Origin: Bacteroidales bacterium
GTDB taxonomy: Bacteria > Bacteroidota > Bacteroidia > Bacteroidales > UBA3824
Direction: 5' to 3'
NCBI GenBank assembly: GCA_017544805.1
Contig: JAFYDK010000122.1
Location: forward strand, 1,764-65,763
DNA: 64,000 nucleotides
Shown here: positions 5,585-61,063 of the stretch, piece by piece
Numbering within the stretch: the stretch's first letter is position 1
Layout: each line of letters begins with the position of its first letter
The notes under the pieces: generated by a model
Database searches by the model: none
The model's input: the letters and a program-made list of their open reading frames with translations, nothing else
Told to the model about the DNA's origin: nothing
Made by a program: the position numbers and the translations under genes

Positions 5585-5693
5585 TGAGGTTGTCTAATTA
5601 AAGTGAAAAAAAATATATTTTAAGCAAGGGTACATTTATTTTTCTTTTTTTATGAAAAAAATACATCACTTAAAAAGAAGTTAGACAACCTCA
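5585..5693. repeat. 13-bp inverted repeat pair separated by 83 nt, followed by a T-run
   Basis: tgaggttgtctaa (5585-5597) and ttagacaacctca (5681-5693). An inner pair aagtga / tcactt lies within, and ttttttt follows at 5694-5700. Confidence 0.6.
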
Positions 5694-5768
5694 TTTTTTT
5701 TACTTAGTTTCAGGTTTCTTTGTTGAAAATTTAAACATAAGATAACATTATAATTTTTAAATAATTAA

Positions 5769-5776
5769 TAATTTTG
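5769..5776 (+). promoter_or_regulatory. -7 promoter box (TAnnTTTG) for typA
   Basis: taattttg lies 33 nt upstream of the ATG at 5809. Confidence 0.45.
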
Positions 5777-5808
5777 CAGGTCAAAAAAACGTAAATAATT
5801 CAATAACA

Positions 5809-7617
5809 ATGCAGGACATAAGAAATATTGCAATCATCGCTCACGTTGACCACGGTAAAACCACATTGGTTGACAGAATTTTGCACCAGTCCCATCTCTT
5901 CAGGGAAAATCAGGAAGTTCAGGATTTAATCCTTGACAACAACGACCTCGAAAGAGAAAGAGGTATAACAATTCTTTCCAAAAACGTTTCGGTAAGATAT
6001 AAAGGCGTTAAAATCAATATCATAGATACTCCCGGACACTCTGATTTCGGCGGCGAAGTAGAGCGTGTGCTCAATATGGCTGACGGCGTTATCCTTTTGG
6101 TTGACGCTTTTGAAGGTCCTATGCCGCAGACAAGATTCGTTCTTCAAAAGGCTATTGAATTGAAACTCAAACCGATAGTAGTTGTTAATAAAGTTGATAA
6201 ACCAAATTGTACACCCGAACAAGTTTACGAACAGGTTTTTGACCTTATGTTTTCGCTTGAGGCGAGTGAAGACCAGTTGGATTTTCCCGTTGCATACGGT
6301 AGTTCAAAAGCTGGTTGGATGGGTCCCGATTGGAAAACTCCGACACAAGATGTGTCATATCTTTTGGATTTGATTATCAAACACATACCTGCTCCCAAAT
6401 ATGTAGAAGGTCCGCTTCAGATGCAAATCAGTTCTTTGGATTATTCTTCTTATCAGGGCAGAATTGCAATCGGAAGAATTTACAGAGGTTCTATCAAACC
6501 GGGTCAAACCGTAGCCGTAATGAAAGCTGACGGCAAAATCGAACGTTCAACAGTAAAAGAGCTTTATACTTTTGAAGGTTTGGGCAAAGAGAAATCAAAA
6601 CAAGAGCTTCCTTGCGGTGAGATTTGTGCTATTTTAGGTCTTGATAATTTTGACATCGGTGATACTGTTGCTGATCCGGAAAATCCTGAAGAACTCAAAC
6701 GTATCCATGTTGATGAGCCTACGATGAGTATGCTTTTCACTATCAACAATTCGCCGTTCTTTGGAAAAGAAGGTAAATTTGTAACATCAAGACATTTAAG
6801 AGAAAGACTTTTCAAAGAGACTGAAAAGAATCTTGCTTTGAAAATTGAAGAAACCGATTCTCCTGAAAAACTTCAAGTTTACGGTCGAGGAATCCTGCAT
6901 TTGGCTGTTTTGGTTGAAACTATGCGCCGTGAGGGTTACGAACTTCAGCTTGGTCAGCCGAAAGTTATTATCAAGGAAGAAAACGGTGTTAAATACGAAC
7001 CGATTGAACTTTTAACAGTGGAAGTTCCTGAGAATTTTTCATCACGTGTTATTGACCTTGTTCAAAAACGTAAAGGCGATATTCTCAACATTGAAAGCAA
7101 AGATGACAGAGTTTTCTTGGAATTCAATATTCCTTCAAGAGGTATTATCGGTTTAACGAATCCGATTTTGACAGCAACGGAAGGCGAGGCTATAATTTCG
7201 CATCGTTTCAAAGATTTTGAACCTTGGAGAGGCGAACTTTCACGCGAGCGCAACGGTTCACTTATCGCAATGGAAACGGGAACTGCTATTCCGTATTCTA
7301 TCAACAACTTACAAAGCCGCGGTAAATTTTTCATTTCTCCGGGTGATGAGGTTTATGCTGGTCAGATAATCGGTGAGACTACACGTCAGGACGACATTGT
7401 TGTTAATGTTACCAAGACGAAAAAACTTACGAATATGCGTGCTGCCGGCAGCGATGACAAAATCATTATTGAACCGGCTACCGTTATGAGTTTGGAAGAA
7501 AATATGGAATATATCAACGATGACGAATACGTTGAAGTTACTCCAAAATCTATACGTCTTAGAAAAATTATCCTTGACGAAATCGAAAGAAAACGTGCTT
7601 CAAGACAGACTGAATAA
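5809..7617 (+). CDS. typA: Translational GTPase TypA/BipA
   Basis: The N-terminus [19 protein letters not shown], then DTPGH and NKVD G-motifs, and a 602-aa length match TypA. Confidence 0.95.
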
Positions 7618-52144: not shown

Positions 52145-54922
52145 TTATTTTTTCACCAACTTTTTAACTGCTTGATTTTTTTCGGTTTTAACGATTACGA
52201 AATAAATGCCGCTTGTTAAATCCGAAATGTCAAATTTATTTTGATTGGTCTCTAATGTTTTTACCTTTTGACCCGAAATATTTAAAATCGAAATATCTTG
52301 AATTTTCTCCTTGGTATCTATCGTAATAAATTCAGAGCAAGGGTTGGGATAAACGGTTAAATTGATTTCGGATTTTGGCATGATGTCAGCAGTGGCTGTT
52401 TCTACGTCATCTTCATTATCGGAGAAAATAACGGTTTGACCCGGAGTCATCGGATAATTAACCGTTTGGTTGCTCACTTCTAATTTTTCTCCCGAAATAA
52501 TCTCGTACCAAGTGCCGCCTTTAGGGAATGCAATTCTTGCGTTCGTGTTGTCGGTGTTGAAATTAACAGCGAAAATCAAATTAGCTTTTTCGGATTTTCT
52601 GTAAATAATTTTCATTAAACTTGAAGCGTCAATTTTCGCCGTGCCATTTGTCATAGCCTCGTTGGTTCTGCGCAATTTGCAGAGTTTTGAATAAAAATCA
52701 TAGAGGCTTTTACGGTTTTCGTTATCCAAGTAGTTTTCAGGATAAGGTTTTTTGTCGGTGCGGGCACCATCGTCTTCTTTTCCCGTTGTCGGATTGTAAT
52801 TGATTGAATAATCATAACCTAATTCGCCGAATTGCCAAATCATTTTAGGACCGGGCATTGAAAGTAAAACCGCTGCCGCACCTTTCATACGCTCAAGAGC
52901 CGTTTTTAAATCTTTAACGTCATATTTTGCCGTTGTTTGACCGTATCTCAAACATTTGAACATCATGCGTTCTTCGTCGTGGCTTTCTGCGTAAGAAATC
53001 AAACCGGGCTTATCAAAATCGTGTTGCTTATAATTCAAAGAATTTAAATCGCAGCCTGAGGAGTAACCCATGGTTGCTTGACAAAACGCATAATTCAAAT
53101 TTCCCCAAAGCATAATGCCGTAATTTGCTAAAACTTTTTCTTCCGAATTGTCAGTTAAATGTTCGCAAATCATGTATGCTTTTGGATTGATTTCTTGCAT
53201 TTTATCATAAATTCTTTTCAAAATATTTATTCTTGACTCATCGTATGCAGAGCATTGTGCATCGTTTGTTGCAGGCGTGTTCGTAAAACCTTTGGTAAAG
53301 TCAAAACGGATACCGTCAATTTTGTACTGTGTCATCCAATAATTCATAACGGAATCTACAAGAGCTTGAGTTTCAGGTGCTTCATGGTTGAAGTCATATC
53401 CCCAAGAATAGACGGTATTGGGAGAATTAACATTAAACCAAGGACTCTCTGAAGTCGTTTTTTCTCCGTCAAAATACAATTTAACGAAAGGGGAGGAGCC
53501 GAAAGCGTGGTTTAGAACAACGTCTTGAATGACAGCTATTCCGCGTTTATGACATTCGTCAATAAATTCTTTGTAATCGTTTTCAGTGCCGTAAGCCTTG
53601 TCCACAGCGAAATAATACGACGGATTATAACCCCAAGAATTGTTGCCTTCAAATTCTGAAAACGGCATTAATTCTATTGCGTTAATTCCTAAATTTTCAA
53701 GATAATCGAGATTTTCTTTTGCGGCTTTAACAGTGCCTTCTTTGGTAAAATCACGGATTAACAATTCATAAATGATGAGGTTTTTTGATTCCGGGGCATC
53801 GAAATTTTTAACTTGCCAATTATAGGCCTTTTTATCAAGTTGAAACGTTGAAACTATGCCGTAAGTTTTGTCTTGCGGATAAGTTAAATTACCGTCATAA
53901 ATATCTTTCGTTAAATATTTGTCGTTGTCGGGATCAAGTATTTTTTCGGTGTAAGGATCTGCTATTCTGATAGTTTCATCAACGATGTATTGATAACCGT
54001 ATTCCTTGTCTTTGTCCAAACCGCTGATGGTGCAGAAAAAATATTTTCCGTCTTCAGAGACTGTCATGGCAGAATTTTGGTTGATTTGCCAATTAGAAAA
54101 ATCTCCTATTAAATAAGCGTTTTTTTTGCCGGGGGCAAACAAAACGAAAGTCGCCGAATTGTCAGAAATTTTGTTAACACCGCGTCTTAAATTTTGGGGC
54201 ATTTCGCCCGTTTTAGCATTTTCTCTTACCACGTATGAAATTGATTTTTCTGCGGTTTCTTGGTTGTTGTTTTTAGCGGTTATTTTTATGATATGACAGC
54301 CGGAAGTTTCAGCGTTGATTTTTATTGAATTACCGCTTTTTGAAAGTTTTTCATCGTCGAGAAAGTAAGAAATTTCTGCTTCTGACGAAGTTGAAACTTC
54401 AACCTCAATTTCTTCGCCGCCGTTTACGAAAATAACTGATTCTGAAGGCTTTTTAACGGTCAGATTAAACTCGTTAGCGGCATAAACTTCTTGAAAAATA
54501 TTTGTTCCGCCGGTGTTTTTGCCTTCTTTTTTGCCGTCAGCACTACGGAAAACGAAAGCCAATTTTTTGACTTTTGCTGCTTGTAAGTCGTCTAAGCCGT
54601 AAAAATCTTTGATATTGCCGATATTTAGCGTGTAAGTGTTTGTTGAAATGCGGCTTAATTTGCATTTTTCGACGTTTTTGTCCCAATCGGCGACAACTTT
54701 TTCCCAATCGCTGTCAGTGCCGCCTTCCAAAATAACGCCTGTGTGGGCATAAATATCGCCGGTGTATCCGCTAAGTCCGCGACTTCCTTGGTCAGCGTGG
54801 AAAGTTATTACAACATTTTGGGATTTAATGTTCGGAAATTCTGGCGAACATTCTATAACTTGACCGCATGAAAAACTTATCGCAGTCAATAAAATCAGTA
54901 ATGTATAAAACAGTCTTTTCAT
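52145..54922 (-). CDS. Secreted GH13 alpha-glucan hydrolase (pullulanase/amylase-like) with N-terminal accessory domains and a T9SS C-terminal sorting domain
   Basis: GH13 regions ...VIQDVVLNHA..., ...IDGIRFDFTKGF..., ...MICEHL... and ...YAESHDEERM. The C-terminus ...LTVYPNPCSEFITI...SGIYFVIVKTEKNQAVKKLVKK is a type A T9SS CTD. Confidence 0.9.
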   Translation of the reverse strand: MKRLFYTLLILLTAISFSCGQVIECSPEFPNIKSQNVVITFHADQGSRGLSGYTGDIYAHTGVILEGGTDSDWEKVVADWDKNVEKCKLSRISTNTYTLNIGNIKDFYGLDDLQAAKVKKLAFVFRSADGKKEGKNTGGTNIFQEVYAANEFNLTVKKPSESVIFVNGGEEIEVEVSTSSEAEISYFLDDEKLSKSGNSIKINAETSGCHIIKITAKNNNQETAEKSISYVVRENAKTGEMPQNLRRGVNKISDNSATFVLFAPGKKNAYLIGDFSNWQINQNSAMTVSEDGKYFFCTISGLDKDKEYGYQYIVDETIRIADPYTEKILDPDNDKYLTKDIYDGNLTYPQDKTYGIVSTFQLDKKAYNWQVKNFDAPESKNLIIYELLIRDFTKEGTVKAAKENLDYLENLGINAIELMPFSEFEGNNSWGYNPSYYFAVDKAYGTENDYKEFIDECHKRGIAVIQDVVLNHAFGSSPFVKLYFDGEKTTSESPWFNVNSPNTVYSWGYDFNHEAPETQALVDSVMNYWMTQYKIDGIRFDFTKGFTNTPATNDAQCSAYDESRINILKRIYDKMQEINPKAYMICEHLTDNSEEKVLANYGIMLWGNLNYAFCQATMGYSSGCDLNSLNYKQHDFDKPGLISYAESHDEERMMFKCLRYGQTTAKYDVKDLKTALERMKGAAAVLLSMPGPKMIWQFGELGYDYSINYNPTTGKEDDGARTDKKPYPENYLDNENRKSLYDFYSKLCKLRRTNEAMTNGTAKIDASSLMKIIYRKSEKANLIFAVNFNTDNTNARIAFPKGGTWYEIISGEKLEVSNQTVNYPMTPGQTVIFSDNEDDVETATADIMPKSEINLTVYPNPCSEFITIDTKEKIQDISILNISGQKVKTLETNQNKFDISDLTSGIYFVIVKTEKNQAVKKLVKK

Positions 54923-55012
54923 GGTATTTTTGATCTATGGTTTCACGTTGCAATAATAAAGGTTATTATGCTGAAAATCTAACTTTTAGTCATTAAAACA
55001 ACTGAAAAAAAG

Positions 55013-55026
55013 CGCAAACGATTGCA
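55013..55026. promoter_or_regulatory. LacI-type operator candidate CGCAAACGATTGCA (copy B)
   Basis: Lies in the divergent GH13/GH13 intergenic region. Its reverse complement is identical to copy D at 59100-59113. Confidence 0.55.
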
Positions 55027-55047
55027 GTTTTTTGGAAAATAAAATTT

Positions 55048-55061
55048 TGCAATCGTTTGCA
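55048..55061. promoter_or_regulatory. LacI-type operator candidate TGCAATCGTTTGCA (copy C)
   Basis: 35 bp centre-to-centre from copy B. It is the exact reverse complement of copy A at 3176-3189. Confidence 0.55.
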
Positions 55062-55149
55062 CAAGTTTTCTTTTAATTTCGTGCTGAAAATGCTTATTTT
55101 TATTTCAATATGTTTTAACATTGCACAAAATAATTATTTAAAAAAAGCG

Positions 55150-56406
55150 ATGAAAAAATTTTTATTATATTCGTTAGTTGCATTGTTTGCTTCATGCAGC
55201 GGCGGACAAGTTGAAAACAAGGAAGTTACAATTCCTCAAAGTAACATTTACGAGGTAAATATTCGTCAATACACTCAGGAAGGCACATTGAAGGCCTTTG
55301 AAGAACAACATTTGGAGCGACTAAAACAGCAAAATGTTGATATTCTATGGCTTATGCCTGTTTTCCCGATTAGTGAAGAAGGCAGAAAAGGCACTTTGGG
55401 CAGTTATTATGCCGTAAAAAATTACACCGAAATTAATCCTGAGTTTGGCACGTTGGAAGATTTAAAAAGTCTTGTCAATCACGCACACAACCTCAAAATG
55501 AAAGTCATTCTCGACTGGGTTGCCAATCACACGGGCAGGGACAACGTTTGGACAAAAGAGCATAAAGATTTTTACAATCTCGATTCGCTCGGCAATCCGG
55601 CTGTTCCCGAAGGCACAGATTGGAATGATGTTGCCGACCTTAATTACGACAATCCTCAAATGCGTAAGGCGATGATTGACGCCATGAAATTTTGGCTCAA
55701 AAATGCTGACATAGATGGTTTTAGGTGCGATGTTGCAGGCATGGTTCCGACAGATTTTTGGGTAGAATGTCGCAAAGAATTAGAAACTATTAAAAAGCCG
55801 ATTTTTATGCTCGCCGAGGACGACAATCCCGAAATTCACAAGGCTTTTGACGCTTCTTACAATTGGAAATGTCATCATATCCTCAACGGCATTGCGCAAG
55901 GCAAAAATACAGCGCAAGACCTTGTGGCTCTGTATGATACGTTGCAGCAAAAATTCCCCAAAAATGCAATCCTGATGAATTTTACGTCCAATCACGACGA
56001 AAATTCTTGGAGCAAATCCGAATACGACCGTATGGGCGATTACGTAAAGCAAATGGCTGCATTGACATATTTTTTGCCCGGAATGCCGCTTTGTTATTCA
56101 GGTCAAGAGGCTGCTAACAAAAAAGCGTTGGAATTTTTTGAAAAGGACGTTATTGATTTTTCTAATTTGCCGTTGAAAGATTTTTATGCCGAACTCAACA
56201 ATATAAAACATTCACATTCAGCATTATGGAACAACGATGTTAAGTTTTTGAGTAGCAACGACAATGTTTTGGTCTTTGAACGTAAAAGCAACGACGAGAA
56301 AATAATTTGTGTTTTTAATTTCAACGCTGACGAAAAAGAAGTGGCGTTAGACGGCGGAAAAACGATTAAAGTAGAAGGCAAAGGTTACAAAACTTTGTTT
56401 GAATAA
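55150..56406 (+). CDS. GH13 alpha-amylase lipoprotein
   Basis: Lipobox LFASCSGG. GH13 regions ...VILDWVANHTG..., ...IDGFRCDVAGMV..., ...MLAEDD... and ...FTSNHDENS.... The ATG at 55150 is preferred over the ORF-track start at 55057. Confidence 0.9.
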   Translation: MKKFLLYSLVALFASCSGGQVENKEVTIPQSNIYEVNIRQYTQEGTLKAFEEQHLERLKQQNVDILWLMPVFPISEEGRKGTLGSYYAVKNYTEINPEFGTLEDLKSLVNHAHNLKMKVILDWVANHTGRDNVWTKEHKDFYNLDSLGNPAVPEGTDWNDVADLNYDNPQMRKAMIDAMKFWLKNADIDGFRCDVAGMVPTDFWVECRKELETIKKPIFMLAEDDNPEIHKAFDASYNWKCHHILNGIAQGKNTAQDLVALYDTLQQKFPKNAILMNFTSNHDENSWSKSEYDRMGDYVKQMAALTYFLPGMPLCYSGQEAANKKALEFFEKDVIDFSNLPLKDFYAELNNIKHSHSALWNNDVKFLSSNDNVLVFERKSNDEKIICVFNFNADEKEVALDGGKTIKVEGKGYKTLFE

Positions 56407-56513: not shown

Positions 56514-57554
56514 TTAATTATTAAAAATCAACCTGCGAAGTTCAGGGATTTGCTCGGTTGGGACTTTTAACGCTTCGACTGCTTTGTCGAAATCAAAGCC
56601 GCTCGAGATGAGATTTTTGATACTTTCAACGAGTTGTTCGGTGCGTCCTTGTTCGATGCCTTCTGCACGTCCTTGCTCAATACCTTCTGCACGACCTTGT
56701 TCAATACCTTCGGCACGTCCCTCTGCTCGACCTTTTGTCTCACCCTCTATGAAACCGATTTCTTTGCCTTCTCTTAATTTTGTTGCCAACTGTCCGTAAT
56801 AACTTATATAGTTGTGAAAACTTGAATCGTACTGCCATTGCTGTTCCCTTGTCATGTCGGAATACGATGCAAGTTTTTCCAACCGCATAAAAAGCGGACT
56901 ATCTTCTTTAAAGGCTAATTGTGTTTTCATTTTCGCCATATTTGATAAGTTATATATCCATTTGTCAATGACAGTTTTGCAGTCAGATTCTTTCATCTTC
57001 CTGTAAAGCGGCATTTGTATTTTCCAATATTGAAGCGTGTCAGAATCTTTGTAATGTTCTTTCGTTTCCATAAATTGGAAATGTGATAGTTTTTGCGGGT
57101 GTTCTTTATCAATAAAATTCATAAAGAAAACTCCGTAAATGTTTTTCATATTGTATTTCCACGGCTCTTTTTGAACTTCACCGTTTTCATCTACAAACTT
57201 TAAATATCCTTTACCTTGCTGCCGCGATGCCGCACGTGCAAGGTAAAGAACTATTCTGTCTGAGAAAAAGTCTTGCGAATCGTTTTGCATCTCTATGATA
57301 AACTCTTCGCCGGTATCAGTAACGCAATTTACATCGTAAACAACTCGTCGAATGTCTTTGTTTGCTTCATCGGCTTCGGCATCGGTGATTGTAACGCTTG
57401 CAATATGAACATCAGGGTTGTCTTTCTGTAACAAGTCGTTAAGAAAACCGCGTGTTATTTCTTCGTCCTTAAAAATCCGTTTAAAACCGAAATCTGTCGT
57501 CGGGTCGATATATTTCGGCGGCCAAATTATCGGTTCGTTAATCATTATATCCAT
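56514..57554 (-). CDS. Rpn-family recombination-promoting nuclease / PD-(D/E)XK putative transposase (second, inverted paralog)
   Basis: ...YIDPTTDFGFKRIFKDEE... N-terminus and a ...DVNCV...FIIEMQ... nuclease core. The C-terminal tail carries GRAEGIEQ repeats. Confidence 0.8.
   Translation of the reverse strand: MDIMINEPIIWPPKYIDPTTDFGFKRIFKDEEITRGFLNDLLQKDNPDVHIASVTITDAEADEANKDIRRVVYDVNCVTDTGEEFIIEMQNDSQDFFSDRIVLYLARAASRQQGKGYLKFVDENGEVQKEPWKYNMKNIYGVFFMNFIDKEHPQKLSHFQFMETKEHYKDSDTLQYWKIQMPLYRKMKESDCKTVIDKWIYNLSNMAKMKTQLAFKEDSPLFMRLEKLASYSDMTREQQWQYDSSFHNYISYYGQLATKLREGKEIGFIEGETKGRAEGRAEGIEQGRAEGIEQGRAEGIEQGRTEQLVESIKNLISSGFDFDKAVEALKVPTEQIPELRRLIFNN
56645..56731. repeat. Imperfect 24-bp tandem repeat (3 full units plus 1 partial) inside the Rpn-like gene
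   Basis: Units gtccttgttcgatgccttctgcac / gtccttgctcaataccttctgcac / gaccttgttcaataccttcggcac / gtccctctgctcgac encode (GRAEGIEQ)x3 on the minus strand. Confidence 0.8.
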
Positions 57555-57720
57555 AAGAATCTGATTTAATGCAAAGATGAAAAGTTTTTATGAAAAAACA
57601 AAATCTTTTTTTGCATAAATAAATTTGCAAATTGGTAAAAAGATTTTGCGTAATGATTAAAAAAAATACGAACATACAAAGTAAAGACTAAAAAAAATTC
57701 TGTATTTTCAATTTTTTTTC

Positions 57721-57728
57721 TATTTTTG
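57721..57728 (+). promoter_or_regulatory. -7 promoter box (TAnnTTTG) in front of the rod-like RNA candidate
   Basis: tatttttg lies about 40 nt upstream of the first long helix. Confidence 0.45.
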
Positions 57729-57734
57729 CACTGA

Positions 57735-57976
57735 AAATATTGGGCGTTTATTTACGCTATTAGTTTTTGACGCACTGAAACTTCGCAACTTTCACTGAAA
57801 TAGTCAGAAACGATAGCAGCGATAAACGCCGTGGGTAGATAATGCAGGTACGCATCTTTTGTGTGCCTTTATTATACTTACGGCGTGAGGATTCGTTGCT
57901 TGTTTCTACTATTTCAGGTAATGCGAAGACCTCAGTGCGTGGAACGAGCAGAATATGGATTCCACGCTTATTTTTT
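57735..57976 (+). ncRNA. Candidate structured RNA: extended rod-like hairpin of about 60 bp plus an intrinsic terminator (6S-like rod or long cis-regulatory leader; identity unknown)
   Basis: Eight consecutive helices pair 57770-57854 with 57860-57940. All three non-Watson-Crick pairs are G-U only in the plus sense. The terminator gcgtggaa/ttccacgc plus a T-run lies at 57937-57976. The 5' end is approximate. Confidence 0.5.
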
Positions 57977-58051
57977 GTCAAGTCTGAAATTGGAATCTAA
58001 TCGGACGAAAAAAACTTTCTTTTTTTTGATATGTGCATACATGTGGGGCAA

Positions 58052-58258
58052 ATGATACAACAACGTTTGAAACAACAGGGGCAAAGCGTTACTTGGTTTG
58101 CAAAACAATTATGTTGTAACCGCACAAATATTTATAATATTTTCAAAAAAGAAAACGTTGATACAGAATTACTTAAACATATTTGTATCATTCTTAATTA
58201 CAATTTTTTTCAAGACATGGCTGACGATATAAACGGAAATATGTCTACAAATTCGTAA
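58052..58258 (+). CDS. Small XRE-family helix-turn-helix protein
   Basis: MIQQRLKQQGQSVTWFAKQLCCNRTNIYNIFKKENVDTELL is a typical HTH_3-like layout (68 aa from the ATG at 58052). Confidence 0.65.
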   Translation: MIQQRLKQQGQSVTWFAKQLCCNRTNIYNIFKKENVDTELLKHICIILNYNFFQDMADDINGNMSTNS

Positions 58259-58359: not shown

Positions 58360-59010
58360 ATGAAAAAAGTAAAATTTTTATTTGCCACGTTACTCATGAT
58401 AACGATGGTTGGTTTTTCCGCTTGTAATAAAGATGACGAAGAAAGCGACGTAAGAGAACAAGCTGTAGGAAATTACTCCTACACTACAACGTTGTATGTA
58501 GAAGAAGATGGTAAATTGGTGTCATTTGCCTCAGCACTTTCTGAAATTACAGAGGCTCTTGGTACCAAAATCAACGAAAGTGATTTGCAAGATAAAGGCA
58601 CTGCAACAGTTTCTCTAAGCGATAACAATCAAATCGTTGTAAAACAAGATGGTTCAGACGGCGAGCAATAGTTCTTGAACAACATTAGAGAGGCTTCTAA
58701 TGGTTTTATATTTGATGTTGCTAAAACTACTGCTACTGAGGTAACCTTTACAAATTATGATGGTTATTATCTTGAAGGCGAAACAAAAATGTATGGTGGT
58801 GGCTATATCGCAGCTTCTAAGAAATTAGAATTCTACGTTTATACTACCATGGAAGAAGTTTTGGATGCTGCTCTCGATGAAGCAGATCTCAGCGATGAAG
58901 AAGTAGAAGGTTTAGTTCAACTTCTTGTTGCAGCTGGGTACACCGAAGAGGATGCCGAAGAAGACGCAAAACAAAAAGTTGTTTTTGAATATACTCTTAC
59001 AAAAAAATAA
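58360..59010 (+). pseudogene. Lipoprotein gene interrupted by a single in-frame TAG (58669-58671)
   Basis: ORFs 58360-58671 (lipobox GFSACNKDD) and 58675-59010 are in the same frame, separated only by TAG and one codon. The second ORF has no ATG (TTG in the ORF track) and no promoter or terminator between it and the first. Confidence 0.6.
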
Positions 59011-59203: not shown

Positions 59204-61063
59204 ATGCAAAATAAATTTTTGACGGCGTTGTTGGCTGCTACTGCCCTCAATGTCAGCGCACAAAACCTAAAAGTTCAGCCCGAATTTTGGTATTCGGGAT
59301 TCAAAAATCCTGAGGTTCAGGTGTTGATTTACGGCGAAAATATCAGCCGTTCAAAAGCCACAATCACAGCCAAAGAAGCAAAACTGCTTAGCGAACAAAG
59401 AGTTCAAAACAAAAATTATCTGTTTTTGAATCTCAAAGCCGGCGGTGCTGAAACGTTTGAAATCATCTTGCAGGATTCAACTTCCAAAAAGAAAAAGCCG
59501 CAAAAAATCGCTTACGAAATCAAAGAACGCACCAATCGCACTTACGGTTTTTCTGACAAGGATTTTATGTGCCTTATCATGCCCGACCGCTTTGCCAACG
59601 GCGACCCCAACAACGACAACATGCCCGGAATGTTGGAAAAAGCAAACAATTCCGATCCTAACGGCAGACACGGCGGCGACCTCAAAGGCATCGAAGACCA
59701 CATCGACTACCTTAAAAAAATCGGCTTGACGGCTATCTGGCTAAATCCCGTTTTGGAAAACAACATGCCCGTTTGCTCTTATCACGGTTATGCTGTTACA
59801 GATTTTTATAAAGTAGACGCACGTTTCGGCACAAACGAAGATTACAGACGTTTAGCCGAAAAACTCCGTCAAAACGGCATAAAACTCGTTATGGACATGA
59901 TTTTCAACCACTGCGGAAGCAACAACTTTTTGTATACTGACGTACCGGATTCCACATGGTTTCATTTCTGGAAAGAGGGTTACACGCCTTCAAATTACAG
60001 AGGAACGGCTTGTTTTGACCCGCACGTTTCAAAAAGCGACTACAAGAAGATGGACGAAGGTTGGTTCGACAAGACAATGCCCGACATCAATCAAAAAAAC
60101 GATATGTTTATGACCTACTTGATTCAAAATTCGATGTGGTGGGCAGAATATCTTGGCTTGTCGGGAATCCGTATGGACACTTATCCTTACAACGACAAAT
60201 ACGCCATGAATCGTTGGTGTAAACGTATGCACGAAGAGTTTGAAGATTTTTCGCTGCTTGGAGAATGTTGGCTCAACGACAATCCGTTCACGACTTATTA
60301 TGCAAAAGGCGTTAAAAATCTTGACGGCTTTGTCTCTGACCTTGACCACGTTACGGATTTCCCGTTGTATTTTGCACTCAACAAAGGTTTCAACGAGGAA
60401 AACGGTTGGGATACCGGCATAGCGAGAGTTTATCAGAATTTTGTGTCTGACTTTTTGCAGCCGTACCCTGAGAAGAATTTGGTATTTTTCTCAAATCACG
60501 ACGTTGACCGCCCCGCAACGGTTGTAAAAGGCGATGTCGATAAGTTGAAAATGATTTACTCTATCGTCTTGACAACTCGTGGTATTCCGTGTTTCTATTA
60601 CGGCGACGAAATTTTGTACGAAAGTCCCGAATCGGGCGACGGTTTCAAACGTCAGAACATGGCGGGCGGTTGGCAGGGCGACAAGAAAAACGCTTTCACC
60701 GGCGAAAATCTTTCCCCGAAAGAAAAAGACATGCAGGATTTTGTTTCAACACTTGCCAATTTCAGAAAAAAATCATCGGCATTTTCTGGTAAATTGATAC
60801 ATTTTGTTCCTGAAAACGGTGTTTACGTTTATTTTAGAATTAACGGCAACGACAAAGTAATGGTTGTTATCAACACCTCCGACAAGGAGCAAACACTTGA
60901 TTTAAAGCGTTTTGAAGAGTGCATGGACGGTGTTAAATCTATGGAAGATGTTTTAAGCGACATCGTGTGTACCAAAATGTCTAAAACTCTTACAATCAAG
61001 GGTAAAACTCCGCAAGTTTGGAAATTGAATAATTACGAAATAAAGGCAGAAATGTCAGAATAA
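59204..61063 (+). CDS. Periplasmic GH13 neopullulanase/cyclomaltodextrinase-like enzyme (SusA-like)
   Basis: Signal peptide. ...DRFANGDPNNDN...GGDLKGIEDHIDYLKKIGLTAIWLNP..., ...VMDMIFNHCG..., ...GIRMDTYPY..., ...LLGECW... and ...FFSNHDVDR. Confidence 0.9.
   Translation: MQNKFLTALLAATALNVSAQNLKVQPEFWYSGFKNPEVQVLIYGENISRSKATITAKEAKLLSEQRVQNKNYLFLNLKAGGAETFEIILQDSTSKKKKPQKIAYEIKERTNRTYGFSDKDFMCLIMPDRFANGDPNNDNMPGMLEKANNSDPNGRHGGDLKGIEDHIDYLKKIGLTAIWLNPVLENNMPVCSYHGYAVTDFYKVDARFGTNEDYRRLAEKLRQNGIKLVMDMIFNHCGSNNFLYTDVPDSTWFHFWKEGYTPSNYRGTACFDPHVSKSDYKKMDEGWFDKTMPDINQKNDMFMTYLIQNSMWWAEYLGLSGIRMDTYPYNDKYAMNRWCKRMHEEFEDFSLLGECWLNDNPFTTYYAKGVKNLDGFVSDLDHVTDFPLYFALNKGFNEENGWDTGIARVYQNFVSDFLQPYPEKNLVFFSNHDVDRPATVVKGDVDKLKMIYSIVLTTRGIPCFYYGDEILYESPESGDGFKRQNMAGGWQGDKKNAFTGENLSPKEKDMQDFVSTLANFRKKSSAFSGKLIHFVPENGVYVYFRINGNDKVMVVINTSDKEQTLDLKRFEECMDGVKSMEDVLSDIVCTKMSKTLTIKGKTPQVWKLNNYEIKAEMSE

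What the first reader, a model, noticed from the sequence alone, without database searches (positions are those of the whole stretch)
57721..57976. Promoter-to-terminator unit encoding an unusually long rod-like RNA hairpin between an Rpn-like gene and an XRE gene
Seen in sequence:
- A TAnnTTTG -7 box (57721-57728) is followed by a region in which 57770-57854 pairs almost continuously with 57860-57940.
- The pairing forms eight helices:
  - 57770-78/57932-40
  - 57781-87/57922-28
  - 57795-804/57908-17
  - 57806-11/57902-07
  - 57815-22/57893-900
  - 57826-32/57880-86
  - 57839-43/57871-75
  - 57847-54/57860-67, closed by a 5-nt loop
- By hand count this gives about 60 bp with only small internal loops.
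- The three non-canonical pairs (57819/57896, 57849/57865, 57852/57862) are G-U in the plus sense and would be C-A mismatches on the other strand. This argues for a plus-strand RNA rather than a DNA-level palindrome.
- An intrinsic terminator (gcgtggaa/ttccacgc plus T-run, 57937-57976) follows directly and shares 4 nt with the outermost helix.
- I found no canonical -7 box between the terminator and the XRE ATG at 58052.

Inference, two options:
- A stand-alone sRNA. The rod shape recalls 6S RNA, but I see no large central bubble, so I do not call it 6S.
- A long structured leader or attenuator controlling the downstream XRE and lipoprotein genes.

I do not recognise it as tmRNA, RNase P RNA or SRP RNA.
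Basis: partly seen in the sequence, partly recalled or inferred. Interest (0 to 1): 0.7.

Follow-up and report, generated by a model that had tools for sequence, protein, structure and literature searches.

The report
Conserved rod-shaped leader RNA before XRE gene
The long hairpin is real and belongs to a conserved, uncatalogued family of rod-shaped RNAs in gut and rumen Bacteroidales that sits in front of a small XRE regulator gene and most likely acts as its transcribed leader, so it is a new regulatory RNA candidate of unknown function rather than a known housekeeping RNA or a mobile DNA repeat.

Summary
**Observation: confirmed.**
- Window 57770-57940 folds on the + strand into an unbranched rod of 69 bp. 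The 57735-57976 stretch has MFE -103 kcal/mol, z = -9.9.
- Upstream lies a TAnnTTTG -7 box (57721-28). Downstream lies a hairpin plus T-run terminator (57937-76) that shares 4 nt with the rod base.

**Conservation.**
- I recovered about 20 distinct homologues from uncultured Bacteroidales (goat, yak, horse gut) and from Prevotella sp.
- In all of them the RNA folds as a 64-79 bp rod.
- Covariation is strong: 14 of 58 pairs changed on both sides, against 6.4±1.5 in shuffles. On an alignment fitted to the model this rises to 32 of 58.
- Wobble pairs are strand-specific: 93 G·U against 7 A·C. The + strand is therefore the folded strand.

**Not a known family.**
- No Rfam 15 family matches, even at E ≤ 10.
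- The Bacteroidales 6S RNA is a different family (Bacteroidales-1, RF01693), and this rod has no central bubble.
- It is single-copy in the window and absent from the phage, plasmid and viral collections.

**Link to the XRE gene.**
- The RNA sits directly upstream of, and co-oriented with, a 66-79 aa XRE gene in at least 10 different genomic contexts. No spacer contains a promoter box.
- Variants exist without the terminator (L040, L046) and without the rod (L038).

**Best reading:** a structured 5' leader/attenuator of the XRE operon that also yields a stable ~240-nt RNA. A stand-alone trans-acting role remains possible. Function is unknown.

The parts
57721..57728 (+). Bacteroidetes-type -7 promoter box TATTTTTG (TAnnTTTG). 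The inferred transcription start is about 57733-57735.
   Evidence: Sequence. A TAnnTTTG box lies upstream of the RNA in the window, L014, L001, L020, L015, L002/L017, L041, L029, L018, L021 and L038; L013 has one mismatch. The start site is inferred, not measured.
57743..57758 (+). P0: a 5-bp 5' clamp hairpin, GGCGU-UUAUUU-ACGCU.
   Evidence: RNAfold. Conserved in all homologues with compensatory changes: U-A to C-G in Prevotella, C-G to U-A in L038.
57759..57769 (+). Conserved U-rich single-stranded linker (AUUAGUUUUUG; the family core is GUUUUUGAC).
   Evidence: TTTTGAC is invariant in alignment A4. The linker is retained in the remote homologues L040 and L046.
57770..57940 (+). Unbranched rod: 69 bp in 8 helices, a 5-nt apical loop (57855-59), and 7 G·U pairs.
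   Evidence: Covariation. All 16 homologues fold as rods of 64-79 bp.
57779..57780 (+). 5' side (AA) of the near-invariant AA/ACC internal loop between P1 and P2. The 3' side is ACC at 57929-57931.
   Evidence: AA/ACC is kept even in L040 and L046, where P1 and P2 are fully re-paired with different sequence. Prevotella has GCC and L029 has CC.
57823..57825 (+). 5' side (UAA) of a conserved asymmetric 3x6 internal loop. The 3' side is GAGGAU at 57887-57892, inside the conserved block GGCGUGRGGAUUCG.
   Evidence: 3x6 is the largest loop in most homologues. The conserved block is visible in A4/A5 and in L040.
57937..57976 (+). Intrinsic terminator: an 8-bp stem GCGUGGAA/UUCCACGC, a 15-nt loop with conserved ACGRG, then a U-run. 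Its first 4 nt (57937-40) are also the last 4 nt of rod helix P1.
   Evidence: The isolated hairpin is -13.4 kcal/mol, but only -4.3 without the 4 shared nt. Whole-RNA energies are -103.0 (full rod) against -99.4 (full terminator). Conserved in A4/A5. Decayed in L040 and L046.
57982..58006 (+). Conserved hairpin (or palindrome) in the spacer: GUCUGA - loop with CGGAAUCU - UCGGAC, 25 nt upstream of the XRE start codon.
   Evidence: The stem covaries (AUCUGA/UCAGAU in L015, GCCUG/CAGGC in L043). The window has a U·G pair in the + sense. The loop sequence is conserved.
58031..58258 (+). Small XRE-family HTH gene (75 aa), the gene that follows the RNA in most homologous loci.
   Evidence: Pfam HTH_26, E = 2e-4. 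238 homologues. The RNA lies directly upstream in the loci (detected).
58360..59010 (+). Lipoprotein gene downstream in the same orientation, probably in the same operon. In this window it is interrupted by a TAG at 58669-71.
   Evidence: Operon membership is inferred from orientation and spacing only.

Best explanation
The locus encodes a + strand structured RNA of about 240 nt (roughly 57734-57976) that belongs to a conserved Bacteroidales family absent from Rfam.

**Anatomy, 5' to 3'.**
- A sigma-ABfr-type promoter.
- A 5-bp clamp hairpin (P0).
- A U-rich linker.
- A 170-nt unbranched rod. Its base is conserved in sequence: P1, the AA/ACC loop, P2 and the UUUCA/GGGUA junction. Its apex is free to vary.
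- An intrinsic terminator whose 5' arm re-uses the last 4 nt of the rod base.

**Proposed role.** The RNA is the 5' leader of the small XRE regulator gene (58031-58258) and the lipoprotein gene behind it.
- Transcription starts at the promoter upstream of the rod.
- Most polymerases stop at the terminator, releasing a stable rod RNA.
- XRE is made only from transcripts that read through.
- The rod base and the terminator compete for the same GCGU. Anything that stabilises or opens the rod base would therefore set the amount of read-through. Candidates are a protein bound to the conserved AA/ACC region, possibly the XRE protein itself, or an RNase.
- A second small conserved hairpin just before the start codon may add translational or operator control.

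**Shown here:** the structure, its conservation and covariation, the strand, the linkage to XRE, the lack of an intervening promoter box, and the 4-nt overlap.

**Inferred:** transcription itself, terminator leakiness, the regulatory factor, and any trans function of the released RNA.
For: **Structure and stability.**

**Covariation.**
- A5: 96.1% of cells paired; 14 pairs with changes on both sides against 6.4±1.5 in shuffles (0/500) and 2-5 when the partner is slid.
- Basal alignment that includes the remote homologues: 12 of 23 pairs against 2.8±1.3.
- Alignment fitted to the covariance model: 32 of 58 pairs against 9.8±2.2.

**Strand.**
- 93 G·U against 7 A·C.
- The covariance model scores 249 bits on + and 32 bits on -.

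**Promoter.** A TAnnTTTG box lies upstream in nearly all loci.

**Linkage to XRE.**
- The RNA lies immediately upstream of, and co-oriented with, XRE while the upstream neighbours differ. They are an Rpn-like gene, amylase, an AAA ATPase, an ABC-type membrane protein, GroEL, a PIN toxin-antitoxin pair, glycogen synthase, ThiE and a phosphoribosyltransferase.
- XRE identity falls to 37-48% across these loci.
- The 55-70-nt spacer contains no TAnnTTTG in any locus.

**Informative variants.**
- L038/L039: the same promoter, P0 and linker are fused directly to XRE, with no rod.
- L040 and L046: the rod is present but the terminator has decayed, so the rod must lie inside the XRE mRNA.

**Competition between rod base and terminator.**
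- The shared GCGU makes the two states differ by 3.6 kcal/mol.
- When GCGU mutates to GUGU (L041, L043), the rod partner compensates (ACGC to ACAC), whereas the terminator partner only wobbles.
Against: - No expression data exist. The transcription start, the 3' end and read-through are all inferred.
- The terminator is strong (-13.4 kcal/mol plus a U-run) and conserved in most lineages, as expected for an independent sRNA gene.
- Prevotella (L018/22/23/24) and L021 retain the full RNA and terminator with no XRE downstream. In L018 the next gene has its own TACTTTTG box. The RNA can therefore persist as a stand-alone unit.
- The overlap with the terminator is only 4 nt. Losing it shortens a 9-bp helix but does not unfold the rod, so a genuine two-state switch is unproven.
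- Some XRE homologues have no such RNA: L032-34 have a 36-nt gap, and Paramuribaculum L035-37 carry a different leader.
- No candidate ligand or protein is identified.
Confidence: 0.5

Rival explanations
1. Stand-alone trans-acting RNA. The rod is an independent, terminated sRNA gene. Its conserved base is a docking site that binds or sequesters a protein, for example a dsRNA-binding protein, an RNase III-type enzyme or another regulator. XRE is simply its neighbour or its transcription factor, expressed from a weak non-canonical promoter or by incidental read-through.
For: - The promoter and strong terminator are conserved.
- Prevotella and L021 carry the RNA without XRE, and the structure is still maintained by compensatory changes plus an apical insertion.
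- In L018 the downstream gene has its own -7 box.
- Sequence conservation is concentrated in internal loops and at the helix base rather than spread evenly over the rod. That pattern fits a recognition site.
Against: - L038 (5' module fused directly to XRE) and L040/L046 (rod without a working terminator) place the element inside the XRE mRNA.
- No promoter box lies in any spacer.
- Tight tandem synteny is kept at 37-48% XRE identity.
- The second Prevotella copy and L021 directly precede small secreted or lipoprotein genes, again as leaders would.
Confidence: 0.3
2. A 6S-like RNA. The rod mimics promoter DNA and sequesters RNA polymerase, acting as a second 6S paralogue.
For: The rod shape and a size of about 170-240 nt recall 6S. 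Some bacteria have two 6S RNAs (established knowledge).
Against: - There is no hit to RF00013, 6S-Flavo or Bacteroidales-1 (RF01693) at E ≤ 10. Bacteroidales-1 is the 6S RNA of Bacteroidales.
- The largest internal loop is 3x6 nt in the window and at most 8 nt in any homologue, so there is no central bubble.
- At least two paralogous copies lie 5.6 kb apart in one Prevotella genome.
Confidence: 0.03
3. A DNA-level element: an imperfect palindrome acting as a MITE/REPIN-type mobile repeat, a recombination or attachment site, or a single-stranded DNA hairpin.
For: - The region is a long inverted repeat.
- The neighbours are often mobile or accessory genes: Rpn-like PDDEXK_2, IS200-like Y1 transposase, PDDEXK_9 ATPases and toxin-antitoxin pairs.
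- L022 shows a 13-nt duplication of the terminator arm.
Against: - It is single-copy in the window.
- There are no matches in plasmid, phage or viral collections.
- The strand bias of 93 G·U against 7 A·C is not expected for a double-stranded palindrome.
- The promoter and terminator are conserved in one orientation.
- The sequence diverges while pairing is kept, as in functional RNAs.
Confidence: 0.04
4. A small protein-coding gene or a type I toxin. Candidates are the 52-aa ORF at 57842-58000 (+) and the 73-aa ORF at 57760-57981 (-).
For: ORFs of 52-73 aa overlap the region.
Against: - The ORFs overlapping the RNA in homologues have different start positions and different peptide sequences.
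- No Pfam hit.
- The substitutions are compensatory for base pairing rather than synonymous.
Confidence: 0.01

Closest known systems
6S RNA of Bacteroidales (Rfam Bacteroidales-1, RF01693; also RF00013 and 6S-Flavo)
   Same: Both are abundant-type rod-like RNAs of about 200 nt with their own promoter and terminator, found in the same order of bacteria.
   Different: There is no covariance-model match. The open-promoter-like central bubble is missing. The RNA is tied to an XRE gene rather than to a housekeeping context, and paralogues occur within one genome.
Terminator/antiterminator leaders (riboswitch expression platforms; BglG/LicT RAT hairpins that overlap a terminator by a few nucleotides)
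   Same: The layout is promoter, then structured leader, then intrinsic terminator, then regulated gene, with no intervening promoter. The leader helix shares nucleotides with the terminator 5' arm, so stabilising it would weaken termination.
   Different: The leader is a 69-bp rod rather than a compact aptamer or a 29-nt RAT. No PRD-type antiterminator protein or ligand is evident. The overlap is only 4 nt. Some family members lack the terminator or the downstream XRE.
[quoted passage not shown]
   Same: A small HTH protein is encoded directly behind conserved hairpins in its own 5' UTR. A small conserved hairpin lies just before the start codon (57982-58006).
   Different: The XRE here matches only HTH_26 weakly and is not Aca2's DUF1870 domain. 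The context is neither phage nor anti-CRISPR. The RNA is far larger. RNA binding is untested.
5'-UTR-derived sRNAs released by premature termination (reported among Bacteroides thetaiotaomicron noncoding RNAs, PMC7366714)
   Same: A terminated leader fragment could accumulate as an sRNA while read-through makes the mRNA.
   Different: No named Bacteroides or Segatella sRNA matches. The probe primers of the Northern-validated S. copri sRNAs do not match the Prevotella homologue.
REPIN/MITE-type palindromic repeats
   Same: Both are long imperfect inverted repeats in an intergenic region near transposase-like genes.
   Different: This element is single-copy, biased towards G·U on one strand, and flanked by a promoter and terminator. 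It covaries like an RNA.

Membership tests
6S RNA (RF00013 / 6S-Flavo RF01685 / Bacteroidales-1 RF01693) | Match to the family covariance model | tested here: not met
   cmscan found no hit at gathering score in the window. It found none at E ≤ 10 over 57560-58100, and none at E ≤ 5 in the divergent homologues L021, L022 and L002.
6S RNA (RF00013 / 6S-Flavo RF01685 / Bacteroidales-1 RF01693) | Large central bubble that mimics an open promoter, flanked by a closing stem and a terminal stem | tested here: not met
   The largest internal loop is 3x6 nt in the window. In the 16 homologues it never exceeds 8 unpaired nt on one side.
6S RNA (RF00013 / 6S-Flavo RF01685 / Bacteroidales-1 RF01693) | Binding to RNA polymerase holoenzyme and synthesis of product RNAs | not testable with these tools
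   This needs co-immunoprecipitation or small-RNA sequencing.
Any Rfam 15 family (tmRNA, RNase P, SRP, riboswitches, large ncRNAs such as OLE/GOLLD/ROOL/HEARO) | Covariance-model match | tested here: not met
   Searches returned only chance-level hits (CRISPR-DR26 at 18 bits, eukaryotic miRNA and lncRNA models).
Transcription attenuator (terminator/antiterminator leader) | Promoter upstream of the structure, and no separate promoter between the terminator and the regulated gene | tested here: met
   A TAnnTTTG box lies upstream in about 12 of 13 lineages and in none of the spacers. This is a motif search only; no transcription start data exist.
Transcription attenuator (terminator/antiterminator leader) | Intrinsic terminator immediately before the regulated gene | tested here: met
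   An 8-bp GC-rich stem plus a U-run at 57937-76, -13.4 kcal/mol. It is conserved in the main group, L021 and Prevotella, but decayed in L040 and L046.
Transcription attenuator (terminator/antiterminator leader) | Mutually exclusive antiterminator structure | tested here: inconclusive
   P1 and the terminator share GCGU (57937-40). The two states lie at -103.0 and -99.4 kcal/mol. Only 4 bp are exclusive, and no effector is known.
MITE / REPIN mobile palindromes | Many dispersed copies per genome | tested here: not met
   There is one copy in the 64-kb window by blastn, nhmmer and cmsearch, and one match per genome stretch. Whole genomes were not available.
MITE / REPIN mobile palindromes | Symmetric DNA palindrome with no strand preference | tested here: not met
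   93 G·U against 7 A·C cells. The + strand MFE is -103 and the - strand -79 kcal/mol.
Aca2-type HTH with 5'-UTR RNA motif | Aca2 (DUF1870) or Aca1 protein family and an acr or phage context | tested here: not met
   Pfam gives only HTH_26 weakly. There are no PADLOC hits, and PHROGs gives only a generic regulator at E = 0.0045. No phage or viral matches.
Aca2-type HTH with 5'-UTR RNA motif | The HTH protein binds hairpins in its own leader | not testable with these tools
   This needs EMSA or a reporter assay. Only the arrangement is analogous (a conserved hairpin at 57982-58006 plus the rod).
New family proposed here (XRE-leader rod RNA) | P0 hairpin, U-rich linker, P1, AA/ACC loop, P2 and a long unbranched rod, upstream of and co-oriented with a small XRE gene | tested here: met
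   The window scores 249 bits against model R1 (the window sequence is part of the alignment the model was built from). All features are present.

The most novel reading that the evidence does not exclude
The rod is the RNA half of a previously unrecognised RNA-protein regulatory module. In this reading the small XRE helix-turn-helix protein, or another dedicated factor, reads the conserved AA/ACC rod base and the start-proximal hairpin of its own 170-nt double-stranded leader. The released rod RNA then acts in trans as a decoy or sponge. That would be a new class of long dsRNA-like regulatory RNA, widespread in gut and rumen Bacteroidales including Prevotella.
Probability: 0.2. Interest if true: 0.8.

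Novelty: new variant of a known kind. Interest (0 to 1): 0.6.

Why it matters
- Bacteroidales lack Hfq and ProQ, and very few of their regulatory RNAs are understood.
- This family is large (170-nt rod, 240-300 nt overall) and has unusually clear covariation. It occurs in rumen and hindgut Bacteroidales and in human-gut Prevotella, yet it matches no Rfam family.
- It offers a tractable case of how a small XRE regulator operon is controlled through its leader.
- It could reveal a new RNA-binding partner for the strictly conserved AA/ACC rod base.
- It also gives annotators a covariance model for a recurrent 'empty' 400-500-bp gap upstream of small XRE genes.

Tried and rejected
- **Rfam.** Searches at gathering score and at permissive E-values found nothing, in the window and in divergent homologues.
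- **6S RNA.** Rejected. There is no model hit and no central bubble, and the literature identifies Bacteroidales-1 as the 6S RNA of the order.
- **Mobile repeat or phage/plasmid origin.** Rejected.
- **Identity with published Segatella copri sRNAs.**
  - Sequence fragments of the Prevotella homologue are absent from the paper's supplements.
  - None of the Northern probe primers (SrcF, ScnR282/101/139/125/86/157/247, 6S) matches any locus with up to 3 mismatches.
  - This does not exclude an unvalidated entry in their list of 63 ncRNAs.
- **Conserved small ORF.** Rejected.
- **Alternative pairing of the P0 5' arm.**
  - RNAalifold on A4 suggested pairing with the terminator 3' arm. I also considered pairing with the P1 5' arm.
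  - Neither is supported. The local P0 hairpin covaries (L038, Prevotella). The P1 change in L041/L043 breaks the alternative pairing with the P1 5' arm.
- **Kink-turn reading of the 3x6 loop.** The G·A positions are not conserved (GAGGAU, GAGGGU, UUGGGG), so I dropped it.
- **Pairing between the terminator loop CGRGC and the rod 3' arm GYNYG.** It is consistent in 11 of 12 sequences but not distinguishable from chance or shared ancestry, so I dropped it.
- **Remnant of the XRE gene downstream of the Prevotella copy.** There is only a ~30-nt nucleotide resemblance, and tblastn is not significant.
- **XRE structure prediction.** I did not pursue it.
- **Paramuribaculum XRE leader (L035).** It is structured (z = -4.2) but is not this family.
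Full report
**1.

The sequence at 57721-57728 is TATTTTTG, a match to the Bacteroidetes -7 promoter consensus TAnnTTTG. RNAfold of the + strand 57735-57976 gives -103.0 kcal/mol. Dinucleotide shuffles average -56.9±4.7, so z = -9.9, and none of 200 shuffles folds as well.

The rod 57770-57940 has 69 base pairs, a 5-nt apical loop, and no internal loop larger than 3x6 nt.

The complementary strand folds to only -79.3 kcal/mol.

The terminator has these parts:
- stem GCGUGGAA (57937-44) with UUCCACGC (57960-67);
- a 15-nt loop;
- the tail UUAUUUUUU up to 57976.

Its first four nucleotides are the last four of the outermost rod helix. A small 5' hairpin (57743-47/57754-58) precedes the rod.

**2. 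It is not a known RNA and not a repeat**

- cmscan against Rfam 15 finds nothing in the whole window at gathering score.
- At E ≤ 10 around the element it finds only chance-level hits.
- At E ≤ 5 in three divergent homologues it again finds nothing relevant.
- The element occurs once in the 64-kb window by blastn, nhmmer and a covariance model.
- It has no match in the plasmid, phage or viral-contig collections.

**3. Homologues**

I collected related loci by three routes.
- Contigs encoding the downstream XRE protein and its homologues.
- One exact-pattern scan of species-representative genomes. This gave five uncultured Bacteroidales MAGs from goat, yak and horse.
- One exact-pattern scan of metagenomes.

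nhmmer and a covariance model (R1, built from alignment A5) then located the RNA in the following loci.
- The close relatives of the window.
- Full copies at 73-92% identity: L001, L013/25, L014, L026, L020, L015, L002, L017.
- More divergent full copies that nhmmer still detects: L029-31, L041/42, L043/44.
- Much more divergent copies: L021, and L018/22/23/24, which carry a ~40-nt apical insertion.
- Remote copies that only the structure-aware model recognises: L046/45 at 57.5 bits, and L040 at 43 bits with filters off.

The L018-type copies come from Prevotella sp. The neighbouring SpmA protein is WP_297011016.1, and one contig is 3.46 Mb. Proteins of the window itself are annotated only as 'Bacteroidales bacterium' MAG proteins.

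**4. The structure is under selection as an RNA on the + strand**

All 16 representative sequences fold on their own into unbranched rods of 64-79 bp.

| Alignment | Cells paired | Pairs changed on both sides | Shuffle control | Slid-partner control |
|---|---|---|---|---|
| A5 (MAFFT, 12 main-group sequences, 58 pairs) | 96.1% | 14 | 6.4±1.5, 0/500 | 2-5 |
| A6 (base of the rod only, apex replaced by GAAA, includes L040 and L046, 23 pairs) | 97.9% | 12 | 2.8±1.3 | ≤3 |
| A7 (15 sequences fitted to model R1, 58 pairs) | 96.8% | 32 | 9.8±2.2 | ≤10 |

Two caveats apply:
- A6 is a synthetic alignment.
- A7 leans towards the structure because it was fitted to it.

In L040 and L046 helix P2 is completely re-paired with a different sequence: CUUCGCA/UGCGAAG becomes AUCGCCAA/UUGGCGAU or UCUAGCC/GGCUAGA.

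Non-Watson-Crick cells number 93 G·U against 7 A·C. This rules out a strand-neutral DNA palindrome and identifies + as the folded strand. The covariance model agrees, scoring 249 bits on the + strand of the window and 32 bits on the - strand.

**5. What is conserved**

Sequence conservation concentrates in a few places:
- the 5' hairpin P0;
- the U-rich linker (GUUUUUGAC);
- the rod base, meaning P1, a nearly invariant AA/ACC internal loop, P2 and a UUUCA/GGGUA junction;
- the 3' side of the asymmetric 3x6 loop (GGCGUGRGGAUUCG);
- the terminator, including an ACGRG motif in its loop.

The apical third of the rod is free to change in sequence and length. This pattern suggests recognition of the rod base by some factor. 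It does not identify the factor.

**6. Relationship to the XRE gene**

In the window and in L001, L013, L014, L017, L020, L026, L029-31, L040, L041/42, L043/44 and L045-48, the RNA lies immediately upstream of, and co-oriented with, a 66-79 aa XRE-family gene (L002 and L015 show the same arrangement, but their contigs break close to the gene). XRE identity to the window protein falls to 37-48% across these loci.

The gene upstream of the RNA is different each time:
- an Rpn-like PDDEXK_2 gene in the window;
- amylase;
- an AAA ATPase;
- an ABC-type membrane protein;
- GroEL;
- a PIN toxin-antitoxin pair;
- glycogen synthase;
- ThiE;
- a phosphoribosyltransferase.

The 55-70-nt spacer never contains a TAnnTTTG box. 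Such a box does lie upstream of the RNA in nearly every lineage.

The spacer holds a second conserved hairpin, at 57982-58006 in the window. Its form is GUCUGA, a loop containing CGGAAUCU, then UCRGAC. The stem covaries, and the window copy has a + sense U·G pair.

Three kinds of variant are informative.
- **L038/L039.** The promoter, P0 and linker run directly into the XRE gene, with no rod or terminator.
- **L040 and L046.** The rod is present, but the terminator has lost its 5' arm or its U-run, so the rod must be part of the XRE mRNA.
- **Prevotella (L018-type) and L021.** The RNA and its terminator are intact, but no XRE follows.
  - In L018 the next gene has its own TACTTTTG box.
  - A second, truncated-in-locus paralogue lies 5.6 kb away in the same Prevotella genome and directly precedes a secreted or lipoprotein-like gene.
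  - L043 carries a second partial copy, consisting of the 5' module plus a short hairpin.

Other XRE homologues have no such RNA (L032-34) or a different structured leader (L035-37).

**7. Mechanism: what is shown and what is inferred**

Shown:
- the anatomy;
- the strand;
- selection on pairing;
- the tandem linkage with XRE;
- the lack of an intervening promoter motif;
- competition between the rod base and the terminator for GCGU.

On that last point, the whole-RNA energies are -103.0 kcal/mol with the full rod and -99.4 with the full terminator. The terminator alone is -13.4 kcal/mol with the shared nucleotides and -4.3 without them. In L041 and L043 the shared GCGU has become GUGU. The rod partner compensates (ACAC), whereas the terminator partner is left to wobble. 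Selection therefore favours the rod pairing.

Inferred:
- Transcription starts near 57734.
- Most transcripts end in the U-run, giving a stable ~240-nt rod RNA.
- XRE and the lipoprotein gene are expressed by read-through.
- The extent of read-through depends on the state of the rod base, perhaps set by a protein bound at the AA/ACC region.

A small HTH protein binding hairpins in its own 5' UTR has precedent in Aca2 and Aca1 (PMC13551039). The XRE here is not of those families, and RNA binding is untested.

Because XRE-less copies are maintained, the released RNA may also act in trans. I give the leader/attenuator reading 0.5 and the purely stand-alone sRNA reading 0.3.

**8. Comparison with known systems**

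- **6S RNA.** It looks like 6S RNA but fails both testable defining features, the model match and the central bubble. Bacteroidales already have a 6S RNA of a different family, Bacteroidales-1.
- **Terminator/antiterminator leaders.** It resembles them in layout, but it is far longer and more rod-like than known aptamers or RAT elements. The mutually exclusive segment is only 4 nt.
- **MITE/REPIN.** It does not fit this class.
- **Published S. copri sRNAs.** None of the Northern-validated S. copri sRNAs corresponds to the Prevotella homologue, judged by probe primers. An unvalidated entry in that study's list cannot be excluded.

**9. Verdict**

This is a real, conserved, + strand structured RNA that Rfam does not catalogue. 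It is best described as a rod-shaped leader RNA of a small XRE operon. In this window it is equipped with a terminator that partly overlaps the rod base. The function and the interacting factor are unknown.

Novelty: a new RNA family, and an unusual variant of the leader/attenuator or leader-derived sRNA theme.

Interest: 0.6.

Noticed in passing
window 58669-58671 (within 58360-59010): The lipoprotein gene downstream of XRE carries a premature TAG where sister contigs have TGG (Trp). This splits a 216-219 aa ORF into 103- and 111-aa pieces. The same allele is in L004, and the gene is called as the same two pieces in L009, so it is a population polymorphism or a pseudogenisation in progress.
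   Followed up: yes
window 56514-57554 (-): An Rpn-family PD-(D/E)XK nuclease/putative transposase gene has been inserted between the amylase gene and the RNA. It is absent at this position in L001 and L014 (L013 has only an unrelated 123-aa ORF there). Its C-terminus has a tandem GRAEGIEQ repeat, and strains vary in length (334-346 aa).
   Followed up: partly
L001 3180-3689 (-) and L013 (ORF at +446..+955 relative to the RNA pattern, - strand): An IS200-like Y1 transposase gene overlaps and replaces the 3' end of the XRE gene. The XRE C-terminus changes from ...DDINGNMSTNS to ...DIKLSEK.
   Followed up: no
L024 1-189 (+), 5.6 kb upstream of the main copy at 5651-5928: A second, divergent paralogue of the rod RNA in the same Prevotella genome (31 bits, cut by the locus end). 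It is directly followed by a 200-aa secreted or lipoprotein-like gene (249-851).
   Followed up: partly
L043 4712-4853 (+): A partial copy consisting of promoter, P0 hairpin, linker and a short hairpin whose arms mimic P1. It lies upstream of an unrelated small ORF and an AAA-ATPase/PDDEXK_9 gene. This suggests the 5' module can be reused in front of other genes.
   Followed up: partly
L022 about 590-650: Forty nucleotides after the RNA terminator, the 13-nt terminator arm TAAGTTCCCACGC is duplicated, and from there the flank differs from L018/L023/L024. This may be a scar of integration or recombination at the 3' end of the RNA gene.
   Followed up: no
L035 2215-2500: The Paramuribaculum XRE homologue has a different structured leader (z = -4.2) that ends in a long GC-rich hairpin plus U-run just before the start codon. 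Long structured leaders may therefore be a general trait of this XRE family.
   Followed up: partly
window 52145-56406 and 59204-61063: The RNA-XRE unit sits inside a cluster of three GH13 alpha-amylase/cyclomaltodextrinase genes, one of which has a Por secretion tail. This link to starch use is not kept in other lineages.
   Followed up: partly
loci: Genes typical of variable genomic islands recur next to the RNA-XRE unit: a PIN toxin-antitoxin pair, a HigB-like toxin, AAA-ATPase_like/PDDEXK_9, DUF4143-type ATPases and an Rnl2 RNA ligase. Small DUF6140 proteins recur downstream of XRE.
   Followed up: no
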